This document shows positions 2,587 to 48,732 of a DNA stretch of 49,041 nt, piece by piece. The DNA comes from Chromera velia. Taxonomy: Eukaryota. The notes beneath the pieces were generated by a model that was not told where the DNA came from, did not search any database, and worked only from the letters and a program-made list of their open reading frames with translations. Location of the stretch: contig JAHBMJ010000372.1 in the NCBI GenBank assembly GCA_018398765.1, forward strand, positions 1-49,041. The letters run 5' to 3'. Positions within the stretch are counted from its first letter, which is position 1. Every line of letters starts with the position of its first letter. The position numbers and the translations under genes are program-made.

Positions 2587-3146
2587 AGGAAACGAAAGCA
2601 GAGTCAGATTGACGCCCACCCCGCTGACCTCGAAGAGCCTCTTGGAGATTCCTCTTCCGATCCCTCTTCGGAGTTGGACTCCTCGTTTGAGCCTCCGCAG
2701 AGCAGTTTTCTGCAGAGAGAGGAGGGGGGTGAGGGAGCAGAGAGATGGACAGGAGGGGAGGGAAGGGGGGAGGGGGATGAAGACTGATGAAGCCAAGCCC
2801 TGTGTGTCTGCCTGTATGCCTATCTATTTACGTGCTTGTATACCTGCCTGGGTGCCTGCCTGGGTGTCTGCCTGTGTGCCTACCTGGGTGCCTGTCTGGG
2901 TGCCTGCCTGGGTGGTAGTGAGTGCTTAATTCCCTGTGTGGATGCCTGCCTATGTATCTGCTTGTCTGCCTGCTTGTCTGCCTGTTTAATTGCCTTTGCT
3001 TACTTGCTCTTGCCTGCATGCCTGTATGCCTGCCTGCCAGTGGATAGAGAGAAAGCGGGGCAGATAGAGAGAGAGTGGGGGTAGATAGAAGGAAAACAGG
3101 GTAGAGAGGTGGTCAATTTCCCTCTGGTAGTTGACCAAGACTGCCA

Positions 3147-3848
3147 TCATTGGGAAAGCTTGTGTATGTACGGACCTGAAGAAAGAGGGAGAGGGCGGAG
3201 TTGTACCGTTTGAAAAGGGGTGTGCAGTTTTCCACGGTGGGAATGATGACATCTGGAGCATACCAGCAGCGTATCTCGGGGGTGATTCTGCAAAAAGATC
3301 TCCATGGCAAAGCGCTTCCAGGAGAGGGAGTCATCAAATTGGGGGACCTGACAGCGTCTGAGAGAAAACTGTCTGTGGGGAGAGGGAAAGAGGTACCATC
3401 GATGATCAATCTCCCAGGGAAACCGGTAAAGCCTTCCAAGCAATATGAGCTGCCAGTACGCATCAGCAACTGCGTCTCCAATTGCCCCCCAACATGCAGG
3501 ATCTCCGTTAGCCGCCCCTACTTCGCATTCTCCCCCGAAGAAGCAAAGGTATATATAAAGCCAGAACCCCCTGCACCTCACTCGATGCAAAATTTCTTGA
3601 TCAGACGCCTGGCGGCACGAAGGGAGAAGGAGACGGCCGTGTTCATGAGCCCTGTAGTCGATGAACTGATGGTTGTACAGAGGGCTTCCTTCAGTCCCGC
3701 ATATCCACCCTGCAACCTGCCGACACTTCGACAGCAGCCAGTCCAGGTGCGCAGACATAAAATAGTCAGCCAGCTCTTCTGGAGACAAATTGAAGCAACA
3801 CAAACTCTGTCTATCAGAGACCAGCCCTGAGCGGTGTTGTCGGGGCAT
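3147..3848 (-). CDS. Putative HNH endonuclease (phage-type HNHc), 233 aa
   Basis: An uninterrupted ATG ORF carries the ordered motifs FFGGEC...WEIDH...RQFSL...SWKRFAMEI...TLLVCSRCHHSH. These parallel the GGKC...lEFhH...KdFtI...sWekikkEl..ciLLCanCH pattern of small phage HNH proteins. Confidence 0.55.
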   Translation of the reverse strand: MPRQHRSGLVSDRQSLCCFNLSPEELADYFMSAHLDWLLSKCRQVAGWICGTEGSPLYNHQFIDYRAHEHGRLLLPSCRQASDQEILHRVRCRGFWLYIYLCFFGGECEVGAANGDPACWGAIGDAVADAYWQLILLGRLYRFPWEIDHRWYLFPSPHRQFSLRRCQVPQFDDSLSWKRFAMEIFLQNHPRDTLLVCSRCHHSHRGKLHTPFQTVQLRPLPLSSGPYIHKLSQ

Positions 3849-4312
3849 TTTAAATTGGAAGCAACAAAGAGAGGCTGGCTGGAAGACTCTTGATTTATCT
3901 AAAACGCTACTCTGATACCTGTTTCACTGTTACCAATGTCTTCTTCCACACCTACTGGTAAACATCACCAGATTCCTTCGTGATCTTGCCATTTTTGAGT
4001 GTTGCATGGCTCTGCAGACTGGTAGCTGCATACTCGCACGCTCTTTTTCTCAGTAGATCTTTTTTTACTTGTAGGGCACTTAAAACAAAACTCTAACAGT
4101 GGGTCTGATGACCCAGGCATCTGCCGTCTATACACTTGAGGCTGTGCATGGCCGGGATCTCTAAGGCCCCAAAATTTTTTTTCACATCATTTCTTTTTTT
4201 TATTTCTGTAAGAGCCACTGGCCCCGGAAAACTAAGATTGATATATATTGTTACGAATTTTACCGGGGTGATTTAACAAAAAGCGCAAGCGAGCGATAGG
4301 TGCAACCAAGCC

Positions 4313-4680
4313 CCTCTTAGGAGGTTAAATTTACCGGGGTGAATTTTTAAGTGGTCCATAAAAGCAAAAAAAGGGGCACTTAAAAAAATGTAATACGGAC
4401 GTCCTCTTAGGAGGTTAAATTTACCGGGGTGAATTTTTAAGTGGTCCATAAAAGCAAAAAAAGGGGCACTTAAAAAAATGTAATACGGACGTCCTCTTAG
4501 GAGGTTAAATTTACCGGGGTGAATTTTTAAGTGGTCCATGAAAGCAAAAAAAGGGGCACTTAAAAAAATGTAATACGGACGTCCTCTTAGGAGGTTAAAT
4601 TTACCGGGGTGAATTTTTAAGTGGTCCATGAAAGCAAAAAAAGGGGCACTTAAAAAAATGTAATACGGACGTCCTCCTAG
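4313..4680. repeat. Tandem array of four near-identical 90-bp units (subterminal repeat of the transposon)
   Basis: Units are 4321-4410, 4411-4500, 4501-4590 and 4591-4680. They differ only at cata/catg and at the terminal ttag/ctag. A partial copy lies at about 4256-4271. Confidence 0.97.
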
Positions 4681-4989
4681 CTACTTGTATATAGAGAGGC
4701 CCAATTTAGCCGATTAATCGGTCGCGTTGATACTTCTGCATGACATGCAGTCTCTCTCAGACTCTCCCTCTAACGTCATTCTCTATAGCTCAGACAATTC
4801 AATATTGCGACCACAAGAGCACTTTGTCAGCAGCAGAAAGTCAACCTGATGAGGAAAGTGTACACGCACCTGCTGCTGAAACACTTGTCACAAACTCTTT
4901 GAAGCTCGTGCATAAGCCGACTCCGTTGAACACGTGGGCGTATCGATATCTTGACACATCCACTTGTCGGCCCTCCCCACGCTCTCACA

Positions 4990-6108
4990 ATGGGAGAACA
5001 ACAGGATGTCCCTGAAAGACTGCAGCAGCTGCTCAACGAGAGCAAAGTTCCGCCAGAATGGCATGCGACAGCCTCCCGATCTCTCGAAATTGCTGAAATG
5101 TACGCAGAGACGGGCATTGAGGATTACCGAGCAAAGAAGGAGACTCGGCTGTTCGTTTGCGATGCCGATAAAGTGCTTTCCAGTCGCCAGAGCACTGACG
5201 GAATGAGAGCGACCCCGTATGGAAGCGTCAGAGAGGATGACATCCGCAGGTCCGACATCAAGACAAGTGAGGGCGGGCGCCGATTGAAGGAGCGATTGAA
5301 CGACAAAGGAAGTCTGGTCACTGACGGTCAAAGCAATCTCTGGGCTTTCGGTTTTCTTTTTAAGAATGACGCAACAGGGGTTTCCAGCCTTGGCGCGGAA
5401 GTTTTTGACCAACTTGCAAAGAGTCTTCCCGCCTTCATCATTGTTGTTTCTGCCGAAGGAGAAATCAAGCTCTTTGCCGGCCACGCGGAACCAATTGCCT
5501 GGTTGAAATCTGAACGAGATGAAAGGGCGCTTCAACTTCCTCTGCGGTACCCTCCGAGCTTGAAAGTTTCCAATGGAGACAGGCACGAGGACCTTTTCTT
5601 GGGTCGTGCGGGTGACCTGAAGGATTTGCTTTCTTGGATCTGTCCGGGGAAAGGGGAGGGGTCAGAGAGGGAGGCGGAGCCTGAGCCGTACATCGTCGTT
5701 TCAGGGGTAGAGGGGGTCGGCAAGAGCTGTCTGGTGTGTGAGGCTCTGCACCGTTGCTACGCTCCTCTGACCAAAATTTGGTTGGATGCTTCGTCGCGTG
5801 AAGCGTTGGACAAAACTGTCAAGGAAGTGTGCACAGACCTGAAGCAAGCTGGGGTGTCGATTGAAAATGAAGGTGATCATCGCAGACAGCTGCATGATTG
5901 GTTGGACTCAAACAGCAGTTGGGTTCTTGTGCTGGATGGTTTGGGAGATAAGGAGTTGATTTGGGAAAGCGGCGAATCAAAAAGACACCTCGTGCCAAAG
6001 AACCACAAGGGAACTGTGATCTTCACCACTCGCATCGAGGGCTTCATGGGTTTCCCTCTTTCAAAAGAGATCACCCTCAGGGCTCTACAGATTGCAGATG
6101 CAGCATGA
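4990..6108 (+). CDS. NLR-like STAND protein: N-terminal DAC(DisA_N)-like domain plus NB-ARC NTPase; truncated, possibly a pseudogene
   Basis: NB-ARC hallmarks are FLGR, Walker A GVEGVGKS (5704-5727), IWLDAS, Walker B WVLVLDG (5920-5940) and sensor-1 GTVIFTTR. The N-terminal segment DKGSLVTDGQSNLWAFGFLF...LPAFIIVVSAEGEIKLF resembles DisA_N. The ORF stops before the GLPLA motif. Confidence 0.8.
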   Translation: MGEQQDVPERLQQLLNESKVPPEWHATASRSLEIAEMYAETGIEDYRAKKETRLFVCDADKVLSSRQSTDGMRATPYGSVREDDIRRSDIKTSEGGRRLKERLNDKGSLVTDGQSNLWAFGFLFKNDATGVSSLGAEVFDQLAKSLPAFIIVVSAEGEIKLFAGHAEPIAWLKSERDERALQLPLRYPPSLKVSNGDRHEDLFLGRAGDLKDLLSWICPGKGEGSEREAEPEPYIVVSGVEGVGKSCLVCEALHRCYAPLTKIWLDASSREALDKTVKEVCTDLKQAGVSIENEGDHRRQLHDWLDSNSSWVLVLDGLGDKELIWESGESKRHLVPKNHKGTVIFTTRIEGFMGFPLSKEITLRALQIADAA

Positions 6109-8724
6109 TCTGCTTGAATGTGCACCTGTTGCGGTAGTCTTCTTCTCATGTTTTGGAGAGTCTCGAACCTTATGTGGAGATTCTCTCTCTTTTTTTGTCT
6201 CTCTCATTGTCATGCAAGAGCTCCGATTCTGGTTCCCGTAGAATCAAGTGTGCTCATAGTAGTTTCTTTTTTCTTTGCTAATCATGCATGGAGTAGATGA
6301 TTCTTCTTTCTCTGCATGAGTTGGAAGAGTCTGACGCATGAATGGATGACGCTTTTTTGTCAGCTGAGTGACCGTTGATTGAGAATTTTTTTTTTCCACG
6401 CATGAGCTTCACTTGAGGGTCGATCAGTCGAGAAATGAGCATTCTGACATGCAGCATGATCAATCAGACGCATGCATCTGCACGTGAGATTGCACTCCGC
6501 TTCGTCATTTTGCCTTTGCTTGATTGATCCTTCGACTGAGCGTCCTTTCATCAGAGCGCCCATCCATTTCTCTCCTCTGCGGTGGGCTGCTGCCAACGGT
6601 CAATAGATCGGTCAAATGATTGGTCGAGACGACTCTGTATGCAGTGGTTTCGTATGGCTTTTCACCCTTCCCCTTCGTCTTCAGACTGTGGTTTTCTTTC
6701 TTTCATTGTCCCAAATTGTCACTTCGAATCCGATCGAAATAAACTCGTCGAGAAGCAAAGACTAGGCACCGGCGTTAAGAGTTACTTTGATGGCTTGAAA
6801 TGAGGGTTTATCTACTAATTAAAGTCTAATTTACATTTTGAAAAGCAGCTTCCTTGAACAAGTAGTAACCGTAATATGTTGGGCTGCTTCGCGGTCTAGC
6901 GTAACCGTTATAAATCGCCGCACCTTCGGCGTGCTTTGATAAATAACCGTTATACAGCCCCAAGCCGTGCACACTCCTGTTTAAAACAAAGTTTTAAGCT
7001 TATACCAGTTGTTAAAATCTTGCAGTTTAGCTAGATCAGAGATAAGAGTTTGTCCGCCTGGACTCTGCCGGCTTGGCGGATGCCGTGGCGGCGTGGCCCT
7101 CGTAGCCGCCTGCAGAGCTAGCCGTCTGGGGATGTACGCCACTGCGCTTGCATCATATGATCATGCCTTGTATATAAACCTTCGGCGCCAGCTTCGACGC
7201 CTCAAGATGTATGGTGATTGACGATCTCTGGCATGAACATGGGCTGCTGGGAGCACGGCTTTACTCTAGCAAAGCCAACTTCATTCATTCATTCATTCAT
7301 TCATAAATTTTTGATACGTATGAGTTACTAGCTGGGTTACTCGCTAGGTTACTAGACTATAGTTACTAGACGACTTAATTAAGGAATCGGGATAAAATTG
7401 CTGCAGGGTCATACAAACTGCACTCATACATATGCACTCCTTCTGTCTCTGAGTCACTCACTGTGCATGACCAAAGAGAAACTGTTCGATCTACATGGGG
7501 GGGGGGGCCAACCACGTCTCGATGCAAGCATGATAGTATTGTATAGAATGACACTCTATGTACGTTTTGGGAAGAAGAGGAGGAGGGGGCAACCACTAAT
7601 ACGGGAGGGCGGGGCCATGCTAGGGCAACTCCTAGGACAACTCTAGGGTCAGCTGTGTGAAACCCAGTGGCTTTAACGCACTAACGTGGAATACAACATC
7701 AATAGTTATACACTGCATTTTTTCAAGTATTTTTTATTAACAGTTTCAATTAAATTTAATACAGATTTACTATAGTAAAAGCAATAAATCCATACAAGTA
7801 CTATGCACTAAATCGAGATCTAGATCGAGATGACCACCGTTCTTTGGTTAGTTGCTGTAGTGGTTCAATGTCATACGTTTGAATTCATTGAAAAGTTTAT
7901 AGAACCTGCATGATGTTGATTAAATGCGGCTTCCTTCTTTCTCTCCCTTGCTCTATCGAAAGAAATTCAATGAAGCCGGTGCGCACAAAAAGAACGAATC
8001 ATCAATCGAGGTATACCTAAAGAAGGGAACTGCCGTTCTCGTTCATGACCTCCCCCCCTTCAAGACGTTTGACCGATTCCGTCGGCAGCCCTTCCATTTT
8101 GTTTATAAAATCTGAAAATTCGGATCGTTTCTTCAGGCCTGACTCCAGGCCTGACTCTCTCGATCGATTTTTGAAGTCCAACTAAACAGAACAGACGAGA
8201 TGCCGCACCAGTTCAGAAAGAGGAAAATGAATAGAGGAGGAACCGGCAACTTGGGAGAGAGTAACGGACTGAGTAAAGTCATTTGATCGATCCATCACTT
8301 CATTCGTCCAAGGAGTCAAGCCGATCCCAAGATCAAACAGCGCGAGGGAAGAGAGAACGGAGGCATGATCATACAATGCAGCACAGTACAGTACAGTACA
8401 GGAGAAGAGAAGAGAAGAGAAGAGAAGAGAAGAGAGAGGGTCGACTTCAAAGTCGACCGAAAGTACGCCTTTTCCCTTCTACAGCTTCTTCCCAGCAACA
8501 GCAGATAGAGCTAAAGGGGAACCAAACCAAACCCCTCCCCTCCTACCCCCAGCCCTTCCCCACAGTTACCCCGTCCCCCGAGGGAAGACATTCATTGATA
8601 TTCTTTTGTACACGCAGAGAGAAGGCAAGAAAAGAGAAAATCAGCCAGTGTGGACCCATCTTTTCCCCTCTTCACTTCCTCTCCACATAAATGCATGCAT
8701 TTCAGTAGTGCCCCAGCTCATTCC

Positions 8725-9308
8725 TCATGACCCGAATGCCGGGGCGAAAAGCGGGCCGGTCCCCGAGGAGGACGGGGGGGGGAACGGGTGGAGAGGGCCC
8801 AGGGAGCCCCATTGCAGGATTGGGGACACGTTCACGTTCAGAGGACTCTGGTTGTTCTGTCCAGGTCCCGTCTGAGTCTGCTGCTGGAGCGAGGGGGGGG
8901 GCTGCGGTTGAAGGGGGGCAGCGCTTCCCAGTCCACCCAGAGAACCTAGAGGGGGGGCAATGGGCGCCCCCATCGCGTTCAGAGACGGGAGGCGAAGACC
9001 GGAGCCAGAGGCGCACCACGCAGCTTCGACTGATTCCCGTGGCTGGGCGGGTCGTGTCTCGATCCACACGCGTACCTGCAGGCACGCACGCAGGCAGGTG
9101 CACGTACGTACACAGGGACACACAATTTCATCATACGGAGGGGTGTGGGGAAAGAGAAGGCAAAAAAGACAGGAGGATATGTCTCCACAAACAAACTGCC
9201 CACCTTCCTGCCTATGTGTACGTCTGAATCGCGGATCCCTCGGAAAGAAAGCGAACAAACGTCTCTTTCCGGCCTGTCTTGTGTGTGCGTGTGTGCGTGC
9301 GTGCGTGC

Positions 9309-9364
<56 letters not shown>

Positions 9365-9457
9365 AAGTATGACTCACATACCTTGAGGATTTTGTCCGGA
9401 AATCTGTTCAAAGTTCGCTGTAGCTGGGATCCCTGCAAAGTCTGCTCCCACCCCCAT

Positions 9458-25807: not shown

Positions 25808-28800
25808 ATGGCAAGCGTTTTGAAACCCGAGAATGCCCTCAGAAGGGCACAAGAGCTGGAGGCTGTGGGGCAGCGTGAAGATGCGCTCACGGAACTCCAA
25901 AAGTTCATCAGCAACCGAAAATTCAAGTAAGTCATCAGAGACTGGAAATGCTTTTGTGTTTATCCCCGCCTCTCTCTATCTCTTTGTCAAGGCGATCGGT
26001 CCTTCTCCACCGCGCGCCTCTTGTTTGGCCGATGACTACAAAGATGGGGCAATCAAAGTGTACGCCCCAAGCCCTAGAAGAGACTGAACTTCTGTACATT
26101 CGTGTTCTACCCACGTCCACCCCCCGTCCCCACCCCCTGCCCCACAGGCACCAGCAGTTCACAATCCACATGGAGGAGATTCTCAAGAAGTACATCGAAC
26201 TGTGTGTCGAGCTGAACAAGATCAAGCAGGCCAAAGATGGCTTGATCAACTACAGGAGTCAGTTGGGGTGTGTGGAAGGAAGTGCACCCTCGTGCCGTCT
26301 CGTTACCTTTCGCGGAGACGGGAGGTGGGGCTGCGAAACAAAACTGAAAGCACACACATGCACACAATACACCAACCACCACACACACTCGCGCACAGGC
26401 AGGCAGATAGAGAGGTCGAGAGGAGAAAGGAAATTACGAGTCTCCCCTCCATAATGAGGCGTCTCTGGGCAAAAGAACATTCTAATCTCAGGGGGGTCAT
26501 CCGTGGAGGAACACAAACAAAACAGCCTTCTTCAAGAATGAGGCTGGTGTTGCTTTACTGTCTCTTCACGTTCGGGCATCGCTCTTCCTTGTGAGCGCCC
26601 TGTGCAGAGATGAACGCGCACTTACATTACATACTTATCAGAGAGAGTGGTATTTTTGAAGATCATTCGCTGTTCTCGTCTCTTTTCTGTTTTCCGTATC
26701 CTCACTACCACAAGCTATCGCGACAGACGTTTTGTTGCCCTTTCTCATCTCACTGAGACACACAATTCAAGTCGGATTTTACCTTCCGTCCCCCTCTGGC
26801 TTCCCGTCCTTCCTTCCTTCCTTCCTGTCTACCTGCCTGCAGCCCTGTGCCAAAACCAGGGAGAGACCCAGAGTCTGCAGACGGTCCTCTCCAATTTCAG
26901 AGAGAGGGCAGAGTCTCGGGTCGCTGCTGCGATGAAGAAGTCCACCGACTTTGAATTGGCAGAGGACCTGGAGGCAGAAGAGGCACCCGAGCAGATCCTC
27001 ATGAAGACTCTGATGGCGGTCAGTCAGTCAATAAAGCAGTAAAGCAGCTGGCAGGCGAACGGACCTTGAGCTCGTCAGTGACGGAAGGGAAGGGAAGACT
27101 GTCTCATCAAGAGAAGAGAGGAGAGACGGCGGTTTCTTGCTTGCCATCTGCGTTGTTCGATGGACCATCAAAGAGAGAATCTTCTAGGGTTCCCCACTGA
27201 GGTGGGGGGGCTGAGGACGCATTCTTCTTTTTTTTGCACGATGCCTTGCTTTTCACTTCCATTTTTTCCCTTTTCTTTCTTTCTGTCTCTCTTTTTTCAG
27301 GATGCGGGGCGCGACCAGATGTCCCGTGAGGTGCACCAGACCCTCAGGTTCTGTTGGGAGTGCTACAAGACGACCCTAGAGATTCTGAGAAACAACAAGG
27401 CTCTCGAGAAAGTGTACCACAAGACCGCCGCCAAGGCTTTTGAATTCTGTGTCACCCACAAGAGGCTCCAGGAGTTCAAAAGACTCTGTGAGATGCTCAG
27501 AAGCCATTACGCTCTCCTCCAGAGAAGTTAGTGTCTGCCCTCTCCTCTCACATTCATGTCATGAAGCATCGCTGGGTGTTGCTTGATTCGATTCTTCAAG
27601 ACACTGACAGACGATTCGAGTCGGGCAGTCAGAGGGGCTCTCCTCCACTTTTCCCTCCTAGCGCACCTCACCCAAGTTCCTTTGGCTGGAATGCTGTTGG
27701 CCCCCCTCTCGATCGACTCTTCCTTCCCTCTCCCCCTTCGCCTTGGAAGTCACGAAAACTGTCGCAAGAGACAAAGCGATGCAATTGATCTCATAACCTC
27801 AGCAAAGCGAGCAGTTGGTGCCATGACAAGAAAAACACGCGTATCATTTGTGTGTCTTTCTTCACGCTTTGCACATCCCTTCTGCTGCAGCTGGTCTCGG
27901 GGGCGGCGCCAACCTGGTTTCTCTCTCCAACCCCGACACTGTTGCTTTGATCCTTGAGACACGTCTCGTTCAGCTGAAGACAGCAGTTTCCCTGGAACTG
28001 TTCAGAGAGGCGTACGCAACTGCAGAGGATATTCACATTCTCATGAGCAGACACAAGAAGGTGACGGCGTTTATCTCAGCGCTTTTCTATGAGAAGCTCG
28101 CTGAGATCTTTTGGGTTGCTGAGGAGACCATCTTTCATGCCAACGCACTTCTGAAATGCGTACAGCTGAACAGAGGGGCGGCCGGCCCAAAGAAAAGCAC
28201 GCAGACTGCGCTGGCTGCTGTCGTTTTGGCAGTCCTCGGCATTCCTCCCTACACGTCAGTCAGTCAGTCAGCAGACTCCTCCCCAGACTGCGGAGCCCCC
28301 TTCCCGGTCCCGTTATCCGTTCTTTCTCTCTATTCTTTAGTGTCTCCGCAGATTTGATCTGCTTGACGATCCGTCCGTCCTCTCCTTCTCTCTTATGTGT
28401 CCTCGGCTCGTCCAGTCTTGCCCCTGTGCACGGCCTTCTTGACACCCTGTTTGCGTTGTGCATGCAGAAGAGATCTGCAGTCCAGCTGCTCAGCATCATG
28501 ACTTCAGCAGGGAAAAATGGGACTCGAACACGTTTATTGTCATTTTGAACCTTCCATATCGTTGTTCATTTATTTTGCGTGTTTTCTTTCTTTCAGCGCT
28601 TTTAGGGGCAGTGCGGGCGACTTGGACCCTGAGCAGACGGTCAAGGCGAAGAAGCAGAAGATGGCAGCTCTGATGCATCTCCCTCAGGTCTGTCTCTAGA
28701 GTTTGTTTCCTTCAATTCCGCTCCCTCGCTCGTTCGGTTATTCATTCACTCTAAGGTTGGTTATCCATTCGTTCACTCGCTTCTGAATGACCTGCCTCTC

Positions 28801-41450: not shown

Positions 41451-42275
41451 GCATCTTGACAAGCGAAGGCAAAAGGGCGAGAAAAGATGACACAGGTGTC
41501 TCTGGTTAGAAAAAGCAGACGCAAGTGTCTCAAACGCAACACGAGCAGCATCCTCAAGGAAAGAGCACAGGAGCGACCCTGGTCACAGTATCTTCAGTGT
41601 TCACAAAAGAATGAGCTCTTAGTGTTGGCCAACAAGCTAGAGCCAAAAGACGTTGGGTGATGTTTGGTATATAATGTTTGCTGTTCAAACGGTGTTCAAC
41701 GGAGTCGCATGCAAGTGTTGCGTGAAAATATGTAAACTTGCGCGCTGTTTCTGTATGTTTCTGTAACCTCGAAATCATTGAAACTGCACATGTCATATAT
41801 CGATACATTGAAACTGCCTTGCATCGATCTGCCTTGCAGCATCTTGCAGCCTCTACCTCACTCACTGTTCTTGTTATTCAGACCTCCATGGATTCCATAG
41901 CACAAAATAGCACAAATAGGGCGCACTATGGCGCACTTTGAATGGGCACGTCGACCTGTATGGCGTCGCGGGTTCGCCGTCTCCTAGCTGTCTATCGACC
42001 GTCTCCTCAAGTCGATCTTGCTTCGAACGGATTTCGATTGAATGGTTGAAATTTGTAGAAACTCTCCGGTGACTCCGCCTGTGTGGTCAGTACAGAGTGT
42101 TTGAAATAACCTTCCCGGCTTCTTGGCTCACGCGAGCTTGTGCTGAGCAGTTTCTGTCGCTTCAGATCCAGACGGGCTTTACGAGCTATAGACAGGTTAA
42201 TTTTGGTTGCCTCTCTTAAATGGCCTTTGAGTCTGTAGGCGTGAACGGGTGCACCGCTCCGGTGTACTGATTCTC

Positions 42276-44264
42276 ATGTTGAGGAGAAGTCACCCGGCAG
42301 ATGCGCGGGTAGTTGCACACCTGGACATTGACTGCTTTTTTGCCCAGGTCGAAGAGCTCGCTCACCCTGAGCACGCGGGACAGCCGCTCGGTGTGCAGAA
42401 TGCGGAAGTGGCTTCAGTCAACTATGAGGCCAGGCGTTTTGGTTTGTTCAACAGGATTTCAGTCTCTGAAGCGTTGAGGAGGTGTCCGCACCTGGTTCTC
42501 ATCCGAGGTGACAACTCTGAAAATGGAATGCAGAAGTATCGGAAGAAGTCCCTCGAAGTTCTCCGAGTGATCTTCCGTCTCCTTCAGAACACCACCTCTG
42601 TCCGGGATCCCGCTGTAAATATTTCTTTCTCTTCTTCTTCTTCTTCTTCTTCTTCTTCTTCTTCTTCTTCTTCTTCTTCTTCTTCTTCTTCTTCTTCTTC
42701 TTCCTCCTCCTCCTCATGCTCCTCTGCCTCCCCTTCCTCCTCCTCCATCTCAGCGTCTTTGCCTTCAGCCCCCCCAACCTCCGATCAGCTTCCTCTGCCA
42801 GACATTCTGCCGTGCTCCTTTGCTCCTTGTCTGGTGGAGAAGAACAGCTTCGACGACTTCTTCCTCGGCCTCACTGATCAGACTATCACACCACAGCAGC
42901 AGCAGCAGCAGCAGGAGCTGCAGTCTGAGACCTTCAAAAGAGAAGAACCAACGGGGAACTTGCGAGGGGTGCAGTGCCAAGCGACGCTGTCACAGGGGCA
43001 GCGGGGTGTTTTTAAGCACAGCACTGTGGATGGGCAAGGGACAAATGTTCCTTCTTTGACTGAGCAAGGACTGAACGTCCTGGGCATTCTTGAAGACGAG
43101 AGCGAGGCAACAAGCTCGAGCCTCTCTCACCCGGAAAAACTCTTGGTTGCTTCGCACTGGGTGCGTATGCTGAGAGAAAAGATCCGACAGGAAACGGGTC
43201 TCCGAGTGTCTGCCGGCATCGGGTCCTCTCGGTTGGTTTCCATGCTCGCCTCCAAAAGAAGCAAACCAAACGGCCAGACGTGCGTTCTCCCCTCATACCA
43301 GCGTTCGCTCCTGTCGGAGACCCCTATTGAATCTCTGAAGGGGGCAGGCCAACCGTCATTGAAGCTTCTTACCTCCGAGAAGCGCGATGCATTGGCCAAA
43401 CTCCGGCAGTCAGACAAGTCTCTTCGTACACTCGGAGACATTCTCCGAATTCCCCCTGCAGCTCTGCGCAGTCTAGTAGGGGTTGATGTAGCAGCATTAT
43501 TGCTGAACCTAGCACAGGGAAAGGTTCCGACCGAGCCTCCCATTTCTCCTTTCTCCCCCCCACTTACGCTCTCTGTCGAGCTCTGTGTGCGTCCCTCGCC
43601 CTTCGAACCTTTGGAGGCTATCGAGGGGGTGGAGACAAATCTGAACCGTCTCGCACAGATGATCTCTAGCCGTGCTTATGAAGATTCGCGCACGTTCGGC
43701 TCGCGTGCCGTTGACAGACTGACAGTGAAGTGGAAGGAATTCGGCAACTCTGCAAGAGAAGTACACCAGCGCTCCATAGCGTGGCCCCCTTCCCTTTCAG
43801 GGGACCTCGCGAAGAATGGAGGGAGAGGTCGAGGAGAGATATTAAGAGGCCCATCAGCAGCAGCCTCCGGGTCGCAGAGCGCCTCTCTGGATCCAGTTGC
43901 TCTTTCTAGAGCCGCCTTCCAGGTTTTTAGATCTGCTTTGCAGGGGGCAGAGAAGTTTCGTCTCTCCCGAATGGTGCTCTCTCTCCGGTACCGTGCACCG
44001 CCTCGCAGCCCGCCCGCTCTTCCAGTGCCCACCGTGCCACTGGCAGACACACAAAGACCTCTCGCTGCCGGTGTTGCAACGATTGCTTCAGGCTCCTTTC
44101 GTGTTGGAGTGAAAAGAGGCAACCTGACACGAGAGAGCGCTACTGCAGAAGAGCCTTTTGCAAGAAACGTAGAAAGAAAAAAGACAGTGGCTCCAGTTCA
44201 ACCGAAGGAGCGAGGACTTAAGCAGACTACACTCAAGAATCTCTGGCAGAGATCGGGTAAATAA
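42276..44264 (+). CDS. Y-family (UmuC/DinB/IMS) translesion DNA polymerase, Pol iota-like, 662 aa, apparently single exon
   Basis: Motifs are VVAHLDIDCFFAQVE, HPEHAGQPLGVQN, VNYEARRFG, ALRRCPHLVL, KYRKKS, EKNSFDDFFL, GLRVSAGIG and SKRSKPNGQT, with a C-terminal PIP-like QTTLKNLW. The first ATG is at 42276. Confidence 0.92.
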   Translation: MLRRSHPADARVVAHLDIDCFFAQVEELAHPEHAGQPLGVQNAEVASVNYEARRFGLFNRISVSEALRRCPHLVLIRGDNSENGMQKYRKKSLEVLRVIFRLLQNTTSVRDPAVNISFSSSSSSSSSSSSSSSSSSSSSSSSSSSSSCSSASPSSSSISASLPSAPPTSDQLPLPDILPCSFAPCLVEKNSFDDFFLGLTDQTITPQQQQQQQELQSETFKREEPTGNLRGVQCQATLSQGQRGVFKHSTVDGQGTNVPSLTEQGLNVLGILEDESEATSSSLSHPEKLLVASHWVRMLREKIRQETGLRVSAGIGSSRLVSMLASKRSKPNGQTCVLPSYQRSLLSETPIESLKGAGQPSLKLLTSEKRDALAKLRQSDKSLRTLGDILRIPPAALRSLVGVDVAALLLNLAQGKVPTEPPISPFSPPLTLSVELCVRPSPFEPLEAIEGVETNLNRLAQMISSRAYEDSRTFGSRAVDRLTVKWKEFGNSAREVHQRSIAWPPSLSGDLAKNGGRGRGEILRGPSAAASGSQSASLDPVALSRAAFQVFRSALQGAEKFRLSRMVLSLRYRAPPRSPPALPVPTVPLADTQRPLAAGVATIASGSFRVGVKRGNLTRESATAEEPFARNVERKKTVAPVQPKERGLKQTTLKNLWQRSGK

Positions 44265-45752: not shown

Positions 45753-47476
45753 AGCCAGTGGTTTTGTGACTGCTTATCTGTCTGTCTGCTACCTTGCTTT
45801 TCAGGTCTGTCTTGCCTGTCCTGTGATGAAGAGGAGTTTTGTCTTTGGGTGCCTTCGAGATGAGGTCAGTACTGGAAAGGGAAAAAATGGTTGTGCTAGT
45901 GACTGACGGTGACTGAGGTAAATGACCGGTCTTCAAGTTGGTGAGAATGATCACGCGCAGCCACTGTACTGCCAAGGACTCTCTTTCCATTCTTACGGTG
46001 GAAGCTCCAGGCTCTCTGGGCTGGAGAAAGAGACCAAAGAGGCGAAAACACGAAAAAACAGACTGATGGACTGTAGCATAGGCAAGAGTGGGGACACTTG
46101 CGATGCACGCACGCCGACCAAAACCAAGCCTTTGAAAAGGAATAGACATCAAACCGAATCTAAAGCAGATGGACAGAGGAAGAGAGGGAGAAAGCCTGTG
46201 GAACAACTCATCTGTCAAGATGCATATAGCACATGCAAGGAGGGAAGCGTAAGACCTCACACGCAATCGGTAGACGGCTATCATTACACTCTACATGCGC
46301 AATCGCTTGTTTCCAGATTGACTTCTTCTCTTTTCGCACACTTTTTACACACATGCACACTTTTATTCAGTCATGTCAACAAGAGTCTCAACGAATCGAA
46401 AAGCCGGAGGCGGGTTTATGATTTCAAATTATGAACACCAGAAAGAGAGACAGACTTTCGTTTGTCATGTCATCTATATCTTTCTTTGTTCGATGGACAA
46501 TGAGGGTTACAACAGGATGTCACTCCTGTATAGGACCTTCCGTGATAAGAAAAAAAGATAATGACTGACTGTTGTTGACACTTGGTCACGCGAACTTGTC
46601 ACGGCACGACTCGAACAACTAAAGCTGACTCCGACACAACACATTCAAGAGCTTTCTTGAAAATGAAGGAAACCTCATGAACGTGCAGGGGACCGGAAAA
46701 GGCTGAAAGGGCACAAGCAGGTACCAACAGCTGTTGGGCATGTGCACCCTTGCGTTCCCGAACCAATTATCAATTAAACTGGAATGCGTAGGCAGCTGTC
46801 TCGGCCGGGGAGTGCTGGGAACCCAGCAGTGGGGCACTCGCAGATCCTGAAGGTGAACCATCAGTCAAACTACAGCTGTGTTGCAAGCATCGGTTCCTTC
46901 TTTCTCGCCGGTCAATTAACACGAATTGACAGCATTCTTTCTCTGTCTCTCAGACTCTCCAGCACTCTCCAGCGGCCTTTCCAAGTATAGATTTCATTGG
47001 AGAGACCGTCGAATCTAAACGGGACAGCTATATATAATCCCACCGTGCTGCGCATATATACCTGCATGCATGCTCCTGTCACGAGTCATTTGTGTAGACT
47101 ATAAGTGCATGCATGTTGCATGCAGTGTTGCAGCTGCGGCCCAGCCGGGGCCCCGCGTGGCGGGGGTGGCCCTTGGATGCCGGGGTCATTTGCGGGCCGC
47201 GGCCCGCGTGAGATAGCGATCAATGGATTAAAGCTCGGCGTGGCTCTGCATGCTCAAATCGCGGGGCCCGCGAGCCAGCTAGGAGACGGAGAAAGTGCAG
47301 AAAGTGCATGCGCAAGCTATAGACCTCAAAAAGTCTCCAGCTCTACTCGGCCTTGTTACGCCACGTCCCCGTTCCCTTTTGAGTGCGTCGAAGGTTCCGG
47401 ATCCACTTGACCACACCGAGGCTTTGGCCACAGAAGCACTGTTCTGAAATCCACAAGTAGGGGAAGGATAAGAACC

Positions 47477-48732
47477 ATGGCCAAGCTCGCAGTCGCAGTC
47501 GCCGTCTCTGTCTGCCTCAGTGGCACCTCTGCCTTCCAGCCCTTGCTGAAGAGCGCCACACCCCAAAGAAGTGCGTCTGTTACCCAGGCGGCATATGACT
47601 ACAGCAAGGTTGAGGGACTTCCCGGTGCAAGCGAACCCTTTCTGCCCTACTTTGGCTATACTCCTGATAGCGAGAAGGGCGAGCAGTTGAAGCGGTACAG
47701 AGAGGCAGAGCTGAAGCACGGCCGGCTTGCCATGATGGCCACCCTCGGTTTTTTCGTGGTTGAGGGTCTGAATTTCCACCCTCTGTTTCCCAAGGTTGAA
47801 GGAATTGCAATCAACCAATACCAGCAGCTCCCCGGTGCCGCTCAGGCCTTTCTTGCTCTTTGCGTTGGGTTGATTGAGGGCATCAACATTGAGAAGGGAT
47901 GGAAAGACCCCAGAAAAGACGCCGACAACTTCTTCACCCTCGAGGAAGACTTTGAGCCTGGCACTTACAACTGGGACCCCGCAAAGTTCATCACGAAGTA
48001 CGGCCTCGAGGACGCTGCCAAGATGAAGGAGATGAAGACTAAGGAACTCAACAATGGAAGACTTGCAATGATTGGCATTGCCGGTTAGTCCATCTTTTTA
48101 TCTCTGCTCTCCTTTGCTTTACTGGGCGTGTTTGTGCCCCATCTAATCAACCGACAGCGTCTCTCTGCCCCCCACCCCGTCACCGTGGTTCGTTCCTGAC
48201 ACTCCTCCCCCCCCGTTGTCCAACGCTTGTTCGGCTGCCTGTCTGCCTACCCATTTGGCCGTTTTTGCACTCCTTGGGGTGTCTGTCTCTTTTTCTGATC
48301 CTCCCTCTTTGTTCCTGTCGGATTGACTGAAATAGAAGGAAAGATGAGAAAATACGGAGATTGTCTCTCTCTCTCTCCGTCTCCCTCGCTCTCTGTGCGT
48401 GCATGCGTGCGTGTTCTTGTCTGATTGTATGCTTCGTTCCTTCCATGAAGTAATACGAAAAGCAGAAAGGAAAAAAACAAAGCAGTGTGTAAAGAAGTCG
48501 GTCTGTGTATCCGTCTGTCTTTCTGTCTGTCTCTGATTTTCTCCTTCTCCCTGAATGCCCGTCGGTGCCTCTGTCTTTCTGCGTGCCATGTCGCGGTGTG
48601 CGCATGCCGATGTTGGGGAGCTTAGATTTTATCGGCTGACAGTTCCCTTCGGACCCCTTCCCCCCTCTTTCTGGTTGCTTGCTTGCAGGCATGATTGTCC
48701 AGGAATCCCTCACAGGAAAGCCGATCTTTTAA
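47477..48732 (+). CDS. Light-harvesting complex (chlorophyll-binding, red-lineage LHC/FCP-like) protein with bipartite plastid targeting, 216 aa, 2 exons
   Basis: Exons are 47477-48083 and 48689-48732 (phase 1). Helix motifs are YREAELKHGRLAMMATLG and KTKELNNGRLAMIGIAG|MIVQESLTG. The signal peptide MAKLAVAVAVSVCLSGTSA is followed by F (ASAF-type cleavage). Confidence 0.96.

What the first reader, a model, noticed from the sequence alone, without database searches (positions are those of the whole stretch)
4990..6108. DAC(DisA_N)-like domain fused to NB-ARC: an NLR-like architecture with a nucleotide-signalling effector in an alga
Seen: a clear NB-ARC (about 5590-6105) is preceded by about 160 aa ending NDKGSLVTDGQSNLWAFGFLF...LGAEVFDQLAKSLPAFIIVVSAEGEIKLF. 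Known: diadenylate cyclase domains have DGA.v.d...i.afg.il...GtRHr.A..ls....a.vivVS.dG.i.lf, and STAND receptors place enzymatic effectors N-terminally and activate them by oligomerisation. Inference: this is a DAC-fold effector with degenerate DGA (DKG) and no RHR, so it is either inactive/nucleotide-binding or has altered chemistry. It is intronless in an intron-dense genome and lies 310 bp from a transposon end, consistent with recent duplication or acquisition.
Basis: partly seen in the sequence, partly recalled or inferred. Interest (0 to 1): 0.8.

Follow-up and report, generated by a model that had tools for sequence, protein, structure and literature searches.

The report
Algal pseudo-cyclase fused to truncated NLR
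An alga transcribes a gene that joins a bacterial-type c-di-AMP-synthase fold, missing both key catalytic residues, to a cut-short immune-receptor ATPase; it is the most degraded copy of a small gene family found only in this alga, which likely reuses the disabled enzyme fold as a docking or nucleotide-binding module rather than to make a signal.

Summary
The fusion is real. ORF 4990-6108 (372 aa) is transcribed without introns. Its first ~175 residues have the diadenylate-cyclase (DAC) fold: VIA Z 9.8 to DisA against 2.9 for the best non-DAC; 10 of 10 Atlas structure rows are DAC. (1) The catalytic Asp is itself lost: DGA reads KGS (K106), and the RHR loop carries a 3-residue deletion and no Arg. 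(2) The NB-ARC stops after its nucleotide-binding subdomain, with no helical, winged-helix or sensor part; the stop is real. (3) No transposon was identified, only repeats. Seven paralogues, all Chromera velia, keep DGA (7 of 7) but replace the essential Arg with Gly (7 of 7). They put the domain on NB-ARC (4), a coiled-coil-like region, a GTPase-like domain and a possibly kinase-like region. The window copy keeps only 22 of 37 family-invariant residues, and 6 of its 7 coding polymorphisms change the amino acid. Best reading: a eukaryotic pseudo-cyclase module, probably an adaptor or nucleotide binder, of which this gene is a relaxed, truncated duplicate. c-di-AMP synthesis is unlikely. Ten literature searches found no description; one key review was unavailable.

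The parts
4806..6818 (+). Minimum extent covered by unspliced RNA-like contigs; the 3' end stops where a multi-copy repeat begins, so the true end may lie further. Strand is inferred from the ORF, as contigs do not show it.
4849..4902 (+). 17-codon upstream ORF in the 5' leader
4990..6108 (+). 372-aa ORF: DAC-like domain + linker + truncated NB-ARC
   Evidence: the exact protein is on record from a transcriptome source with a 2014-nt contig
5008..5520 (+). DAC (DisA_N, PF02457)-fold domain, residues ~7-177, catalytically degenerate
5305..5313 (+). K106-G107-S108, in place of the catalytic D-G-A
5386..5409 (+). S133-D140 (SLGAEVFD), in place of DisA GTRHRTAE; no Arg or His, preceded by a 3-residue deletion of the family's Gly-rich loop
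5593..6105 (+). Nucleotide-binding subdomain of an NB-ARC (AP-ATPase), closest profile FxSxx_TPR; ends before the helical, winged-helix and sensor parts
5704..5727 (+). Walker A, GVEGVGKS, intact (motif name from established knowledge)
5920..5940 (+). Walker B, WVLVLDG (DN in paralogues)
6106..6108 (+). Premature TGA relative to paralogues P0004 and P0010; no listed difference here in any run that covers it
4313..4680 (.).
6777..7000 (.). Start of a multi-copy repeat downstream of the gene; right end not mapped

Best explanation
The gene is a transcribed, intronless fusion of a DAC-fold domain lacking its catalytic Asp and Arg to the nucleotide-binding subdomain of an NB-ARC ATPase, and it is likely a relaxed, truncated duplicate from a Chromera family that likely uses the disabled DAC fold as a docking or nucleotide-binding module in STAND signalling. 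Steps. (1, inferred) A prokaryotic DisA/DacZ-branch DAC domain entered the Chromera lineage once; the donor is unknown. (2, shown) It kept DGA but replaced GTRHR with a Gly-rich loop, G[LM]G[TSA][AV]; (inferred) this ends cyclase activity while leaving a pocket that could still hold an adenine nucleotide. (3, shown) It was shuffled onto NB-ARC proteins and three unrelated partner regions. (4, inferred) As with Death-like and EAD adaptors, the shared domain would couple STAND receptors to those partners by DAC-to-DAC pairing, possibly gated by a nucleotide. (5, shown) The window copy further lost the Asp and part of the loop, and stops before the regulatory and sensor parts of the ATPase; (inferred) it can neither make nor tightly bind a cyclic dinucleotide, nor act as a complete receptor.
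For: Fold: Foldseek ranks 1-50, every listed row a DAC, best E 7e-5, prob 1.0. VIA Z 9.8, rmsd 4.0 over 127 residues; first non-DAC Z 2.9. Atlas structure 10 of 10 DAC, TM 0.71-0.74. Paralogue P0010: same result. Register: the paralogues align without gaps to a DisA-dominated profile from DGA through the RHR helix; DGA kept in 7 of 7, first Arg is Gly in 7 of 7. DGA-to-loop spacing is 28 in 6 of 6 paralogues counted and 69 of 72 DisA, 24 in the window. hhalign probability 91.7%, E 7.8e-7. Need for Asp and Arg: PMC13640721 section 7; 10.64898/2026.08.10.743927 passages. Shuffling. Decay of this copy: 22 of 37 paralogue-invariant columns kept, against 37 of 38-46 in leave-one-out controls; longest end branch, 0.84 against 0.20-0.64; 6 of 7 coding differences between alleles non-synonymous, P=0.007-0.02 under omega 0.2, coding density 0.63% against 0.72% in the 3' UTR. 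Adaptor precedent: PMC7159879 and PMC4986451 passages.
Against: The frame is open over 372 codons with only in-frame indels at 35-51% identity to paralogues, in both alleles, and the truncation falls close to a subdomain boundary with Walker A intact. That fits long-term selection, not simple decay. Seven polymorphisms are few, and an excess of replacements also fits diversifying selection; no DNA run of the second allele's strain was available. No partner pair was shown. My reference DACs were picked by a GTRHR pattern, so they fix the register but cannot show how far active DACs vary. The invariant Arg four residues before the Asp (R102 in the window) could replace the lost Arg, and I could not inspect model coordinates. 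The partner labels are weak: GTPase Pfam hit below cut-off (20.7 against 21.9 bits); kinase-like and coiled-coil-like by eye only.
Confidence: 0.5

Rival explanations
1. The window protein is a functional truncated modulator: its NBD and DAC-like surface join the oligomers of full-length paralogues and damp or tune them, like CARD-only or TIR-NB proteins (analogy recalled).
For: Open frame in both alleles; transcripts in 3 studies; truncation near the NBD boundary with Walker A intact; losses cluster in the ligand pocket while the core fold is kept.
Against: Coding sites are no more conserved than the 3' UTR between alleles; the NBD is also more diverged (42-51% against 55-60% among paralogues); no protein-level evidence.
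Confidence: 0.2
2. The family domain is an active enzyme with changed chemistry (ATP hydrolysis, a linear dinucleotide or another nucleotide product), used as a direct effector when the STAND oligomerises; only the window copy is dead.
For: DGA invariant in 7 of 7 paralogues, with an invariant upstream Arg and Asn and a Gly-rich loop. Defence DACs with DGF/GGR motifs make non-canonical products. Fungal NLRs carry RelA/SpoT and PNP_UDP enzymes N-terminally (PMC4986451).
Against: The defence DACs keep, and need, the Arg that all Chromera copies lack. About a third of the columns are invariant in so small a family, so DGA retention alone is weak evidence.
Confidence: 0.2
3. The window protein is an NLR whose DAC effector makes c-di-AMP on oligomerisation (the boldest form of the first reader's title).
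For: DAC fold in the effector position; DACs act in bacterial anti-phage defence.
Against: Catalytic Asp is Lys, no Arg or His in the loop, 4-residue shortening; no PF02457 match for this protein at E up to 5; no sensor or winged-helix part.
Confidence: 0.03
4. Assembly error or bacterial contamination: the stop or the fusion is not in the alga.
For: Intronless and flanked by repeats.
Against: Identical in RNA-like contigs of two other studies and 13 differences over 2 kb in a third; eukaryotic neighbours in the window; all 7 relatives are Chromera genes; no prokaryotic or viral relative.
Confidence: 0.01

Closest known systems
DisA diadenylate cyclase domain (T. maritima DisA, PDB 3c1y/4yxm; PF02457; NCBIfam PRK13482)
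   Same: Fold and topology (Z 9.8); paralogues share the DGA motif and the 28-residue DGA-to-loop spacing; best NCBIfam hit for 3 of 7 domains, E 0.004, far below cut-off.
   Different: GTRHR is G[LM]G[TSA][AV] in paralogues; the window copy also lacks the Asp. No DisA linker or DNA-binding part. 12-17% structural identity to DisA.
DacZ/CdaZ-type and stand-alone minimal DAC clusters
   Same: Nearest Atlas models (TM 0.71-0.79) and nearest feature clusters, 158-180 aa (scores 0.86-0.90).
   Different: Their sequences were not visible, so motif retention and donor status are untested.
PanS of Panoptoo/PanDA and DS-2C/CdaG defence DACs (10.64898/2026.08.10.743927; PMC13640721)
   Same: DAC domain recruited to a defence-type setting, with a Gly-rich variant of the RHR motif (GGR).
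   Different: PanS keeps and needs Asp and Arg, is an active stand-alone enzyme and works with a separate membrane effector; no STAND fusion is described in the passages read.
Fungal and bacterial NB-ARC-TPR STAND proteins with swappable N-terminal domains (PMC4986451; FxsT, NF040586)
   Same: NB-ARC type (E 1.6e-8 for the window, 1e-29 for P0010) and an enzyme-derived domain in the effector slot; RelA/SpoT-NLRs are a precedent for a bacterial second-messenger synthase there.
   Different: DisA is not mentioned in that paper's main text; here the enzyme looks dead, and the window protein has no HD1, WHD or repeats.
Effector-associated domains and Death-like adaptors (PMC7159879)
   Same: One small domain, closest to its lineage-specific paralogues, found on NTPase cores and on unrelated partners.
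   Different: EADs are non-enzymatic domains from the start; this is a disabled enzyme fold. Homotypic binding is untested here.

Membership tests
DAC/DisA_N fold (PF02457) | DAC alpha/beta fold | tested here: met
   window; paralogue
DAC/DisA_N fold (PF02457) | Pfam gathering score of 27 bits | tested here: not met
   No match for the window; 3 of 7 domains match below cut-off, best E 2.4e-4; P0005 17.4 bits
Active diadenylate cyclase | Catalytic Asp of DGA | tested here: not met
   K106 in the window; met in 7 of 7 paralogues
Active diadenylate cyclase | First Arg of the RHR/GGR motif | tested here: not met
   Gly in the window and in 7 of 7 paralogues
Active diadenylate cyclase | Head-to-head dimer forming a shared active site | not tested
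Active diadenylate cyclase | Synthesis of a cyclic dinucleotide | not testable with these tools
   Needs an enzyme assay
NLR-like tripartite STAND receptor | NB-ARC nucleotide-binding subdomain with Walker A and B | tested here: met
NLR-like tripartite STAND receptor | Helical domain and winged-helix domain after the NBD | tested here: not met
   Stop at 6106-6108; profile covered to 155 of 248; no downstream remnant. P0004 and P0010 continue for about 120-145 aa.
NLR-like tripartite STAND receptor | C-terminal repeat sensor (TPR/WD40/LRR/ANK) | tested here: not met
   Absent in the window.
NLR-like tripartite STAND receptor | N-terminal effector or adaptor domain | tested here: met
   DAC-fold domain N-terminal to NB-ARC in 5 of 8 family genes
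EAD-like homotypic adaptor | Same domain on NTPase cores and on unrelated partners, monophyletic within the lineage | tested here: met
   one clade, 100/100, against 14 bacterial and viral-contig DACs
EAD-like homotypic adaptor | Homotypic binding | not tested
Transposon-borne gene | Transposase or helicase ORF, terminal repeats or target-site duplication around the gene | tested here: inconclusive

The most novel reading that the evidence does not exclude
Chromera has domesticated a bacterial diadenylate-cyclase fold into an immune-type signalling module: a nucleotide-gated pairing domain, or a receptor for bacterial c-di-AMP, that wires NB-ARC receptors to GTPase-like, kinase-like and coiled-coil partners, with the window gene as a truncated decoy of that network.
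Probability: 0.3. Interest if true: 0.85.

Novelty: new variant of a known kind. Interest (0 to 1): 0.58.

Why it matters
DAC domains are treated as prokaryotic and were only recently shown to act in bacterial immunity. A eukaryote that has expanded one and fixed it in the effector slot of STAND ATPases adds a new N-terminal domain type to NLR-like proteins, in the photosynthetic sister lineage of apicomplexans. The loss of the essential Arg in all copies while DGA is kept poses a sharp, cheap biochemical question: dead adaptor, c-di-AMP binder or new chemistry. The window gene itself is the least informative member; the paralogues P0004, P0010, P0005 and P0006 are the ones to test.

Tried and rejected
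Sequence-only searches of the N-terminal domain against PDB gave no DAC (the weak hits to dehydrogenases, ribosomal proteins and thiamine enzymes were rejected as chance). No non-Chromera relative in: phmmer of 1.84 billion representatives (8 hits at E<=1e-3: the window's own model, 6 Chromera paralogues, and P0009, an NHL-repeat protein matched over 51 residues, dropped as spurious); three word-index searches; prokaryote genomes, metagenomes and viral contigs (0 of 46, 265 and 82 pattern matches confirmed); plasmids; viral folds. PADLOC: one weak unrelated hit among 7 proteins. The kinase-like region of P0008 got no Pfam, NCBIfam or PDB support. One targeted tblastn of the paralogue tails against the 3' UTR failed on a command error; the whole-window tblastn in the same call (83) gave no credible hit beyond 6102. 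Rfam: 0 matches in 3000-8200. No run was on record as RNA. The tree had only DisA and CdaA outgroups and cannot name a donor. The 'disa_n' paper search matched unrelated words and is uninformative. Earlier-findings look-ups by sequence, by words and by place found nothing.

Full report
The observation. Pfam finds NB-ARC at residues 228-365 (E 2e-7, above cut-off) but only over profile positions 15-155 of 248, and nothing for the N-terminal 187 residues at E up to 5. All named relatives are Chromera velia proteins, and the window also carries eIF3a-like exons and a chlorophyll-binding protein, so the setting is an intron-rich algal nuclear genome.

The fold. An AlphaFold2 model built on a 7-sequence alignment (mean pLDDT 69.9) matches only diadenylate cyclases among the Foldseek rows listed for ranks 1-50 (best T. 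maritima DisA, E 7e-5, TM 0.50). VIA alignment gives Z 9.8 (rmsd 4.0, 127 residues); the first 40 entries are all DAC-family, and the first unrelated fold scores 2.9. The ESM Atlas, using its own model, returns DAC in 10 of 10 structure rows, TM 0.71-0.74 over residues ~1-179; its feature score of 0.89 is a lead only. A paralogue's domain models better (pLDDT 76.1) and gives the same answer. The DAC-fold call is therefore confirmed.

The family. Searches returned seven paralogous records: P0003, P0004, P0007 and P0010 carry the domain before an NB-ARC; P0005 before a long coiled-coil-like region; P0006 after a GTPase-like P-loop domain (Pfam MMR_HSR1 E 5e-4, below cut-off); P0008 before a region with kinase-like motifs that I recognised by eye and no library confirmed. 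UniRef already names 1 of the 7 'DAC domain-containing protein'. The domains are 49-68% identical to each other and 35-50% to the window copy (six of the seven were aligned; P0007 is a near-copy of P0010). They form one clade (100/100) on a long stem against 10 DisA and 4 CdaA sequences. No relative outside Chromera was found, but these searches did not reach bacterial DACs either.

The active site. I built a reference set from pattern scans: 76 of 139 loci gave a DGA...GTRHR segment (72 DisA, 4 CdaA). All seven paralogues align to it without gaps from DGA through the RHR helix. DGA is kept in 7 of 7; GTRHRTAE corresponds to G[LM]G[TSA][AV][AS][AEQ], so the first Arg is Gly and the His and second Arg are small residues in 7 of 7. 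The spacing from DGA to this loop is 28 in all six paralogues counted and in 69 of 72 DisA, against 26-27 in CdaA; profile-profile probability is 91.7%. In the window copy the Asp column holds K106, the spacing is 24, and the loop reads SLGAEVFD. It keeps 22 of 37 columns invariant in six paralogues, whereas each paralogue keeps 37 of 38-46 in leave-one-out controls; the losses include the Asp, the Ala and three loop glycines. Two 2026 preprints on defence DACs show that variant motifs (DGF, GGR) are active but still need the Asp and the Arg: D68A and R105A abolish EcPanS activity (PMC13640721: abstract, sections 5 and 7 and passages read), and DGF or GGR mutations abolish FsPanS product (10.64898/2026.08.10.743927: first fifth of the text and passages read). 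Cyclase activity is thus very unlikely for this copy and unlikely for the family. Caveat: the reference set was selected for GTRHR and says nothing about natural motif variation.

The ATPase. Walker A (5704-5727) and Walker B (5920-5940) are present. The protein stops where P0004 and P0010 continue into the helical part, and tblastn finds no remnant beyond 6102. The NB-ARC type is closest to bacterial FxsT NB-ARC-TPR proteins, but the paralogue models end at profile position 266-267 of 830. Both long models end within a few residues of the same point, which may be intron read-through in the gene models (inference); a TPR sensor is therefore neither shown nor excluded for them.

Expression and reality of the stop. 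Contigs from six RNA-like runs in three studies cover the gene without a joint: X3 4821-6383 with no difference; X4 in two pieces, 4890-5646 and 5716-6805, with none; X5-X8 about 4806-6818 with 12-13 differences and two 1-base indels outside the ORF. X4, X5 and X8 skip a GT-AG intron of the neighbouring minus-strand gene (9076-9381), so they hold spliced RNA. The two DNA runs agree with the window but may be its source. The exact 372-aa protein is on record from a transcriptome source; a second record starts at Met72. Translation is not shown.

Selection. The second allele differs at 7 coding sites (12 of 13 differences were placed); 6 change the residue (A74T, I85M, T111I, E137D, G196A, G328S). 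That gives pN/pS near 2, fits neutrality (P 0.36-0.50), and is unlikely under omega 0.2 (P 0.007-0.02); coding sites are as variable as the 3' UTR. The window has the longest end branch in the family. Against simple decay, the frame is open in both alleles with only in-frame indels.

Surroundings. A 90-bp tandem array ends at 4680, 310 bp before the ATG, and multi-copy DNA lies at 4250-4617 and from about 6777. No transposase-like Pfam hit or terminal inverted repeat was found. Repeat-flanked is shown; transposon is not.

Mechanism. The pattern of one small lineage-specific domain on STAND ATPases and on unrelated partners is the one used to propose homotypic adaptors (PMC7159879, passages; class 2 N-terminal domains in PMC4986451, passages). 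DACs naturally pair around a nucleotide, so a disabled DAC offers a ready pairing surface and pocket. I put 0.5 on this reading with the window gene as a relaxed duplicate, 0.2 on a functional truncated modulator, 0.2 on altered chemistry in the paralogues, and 0.03 on c-di-AMP synthesis by this protein. Pairing and ligand binding are untested.

Novelty. Ten full-text searches (listings only, unless noted above) showed no paper describing a Chromera DAC or a DAC-NB-ARC fusion; the three all-terms searches gave 1, 1 and 0 papers, the two hits unrelated by title and abstract. A 2026 survey of prokaryotic STANDs has no DAC term in its text or in 7 supplementary files (PMC13581612). Galperin's 2023 review of DAC architectures was not available and could mention eukaryotic copies; bioRxiv supplements were not read. 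Verdict: a real and apparently undescribed variant of STAND architecture, with a probably dead enzyme, seen here in its most degraded copy. Interest 0.58.

Noticed in passing
window 4849-4902: A 17-codon upstream ORF in the transcript leader; the second allele has a 1-base deletion at 4892 inside it.
   Followed up: partly
window 3000-3870: Covered by several differing RNA-like contigs (95-99% alike), so an expressed multi-copy element; its two long ORFs (3180-3830 +, 3147-3923 -) have no Pfam match.
   Followed up: partly
window 4677-4698: Read on the minus strand the repeat block begins TCTCTATATA, like a Helitron 5' end (recalled, untested); no second copy in the window.
   Followed up: partly
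window 7790-9400 (minus strand): A spliced, expressed neighbouring gene with a GT-AG intron at 9076-9381; not identified.
   Followed up: no
window 25879-28357: Exons matching the eIF3a PCI/TPR-like region.
   Followed up: no
window 42231-44264: A 677-codon uninterrupted frame with a Y-family polymerase (IMS) domain, E 6e-24, unusually long for this intron-rich window.
   Followed up: no
window 47411-48088: Chlorophyll a/b-binding (light-harvesting) protein frame.
   Followed up: no
P0004 and P0010 C-termini: Both gene models end within a few residues of the same point early in the winged-helix region, suggesting missed downstream exons.
   Followed up: partly
P0006: GTPase-like P-loop domain followed by the DAC-like domain with DGA intact; it scores highest against the DisA profile.
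   Followed up: partly
L002 4870-5696: A plasmid record's predicted qacH resistance call overlaps a HEXXH-motif gene exactly, probably a mis-call.
   Followed up: no
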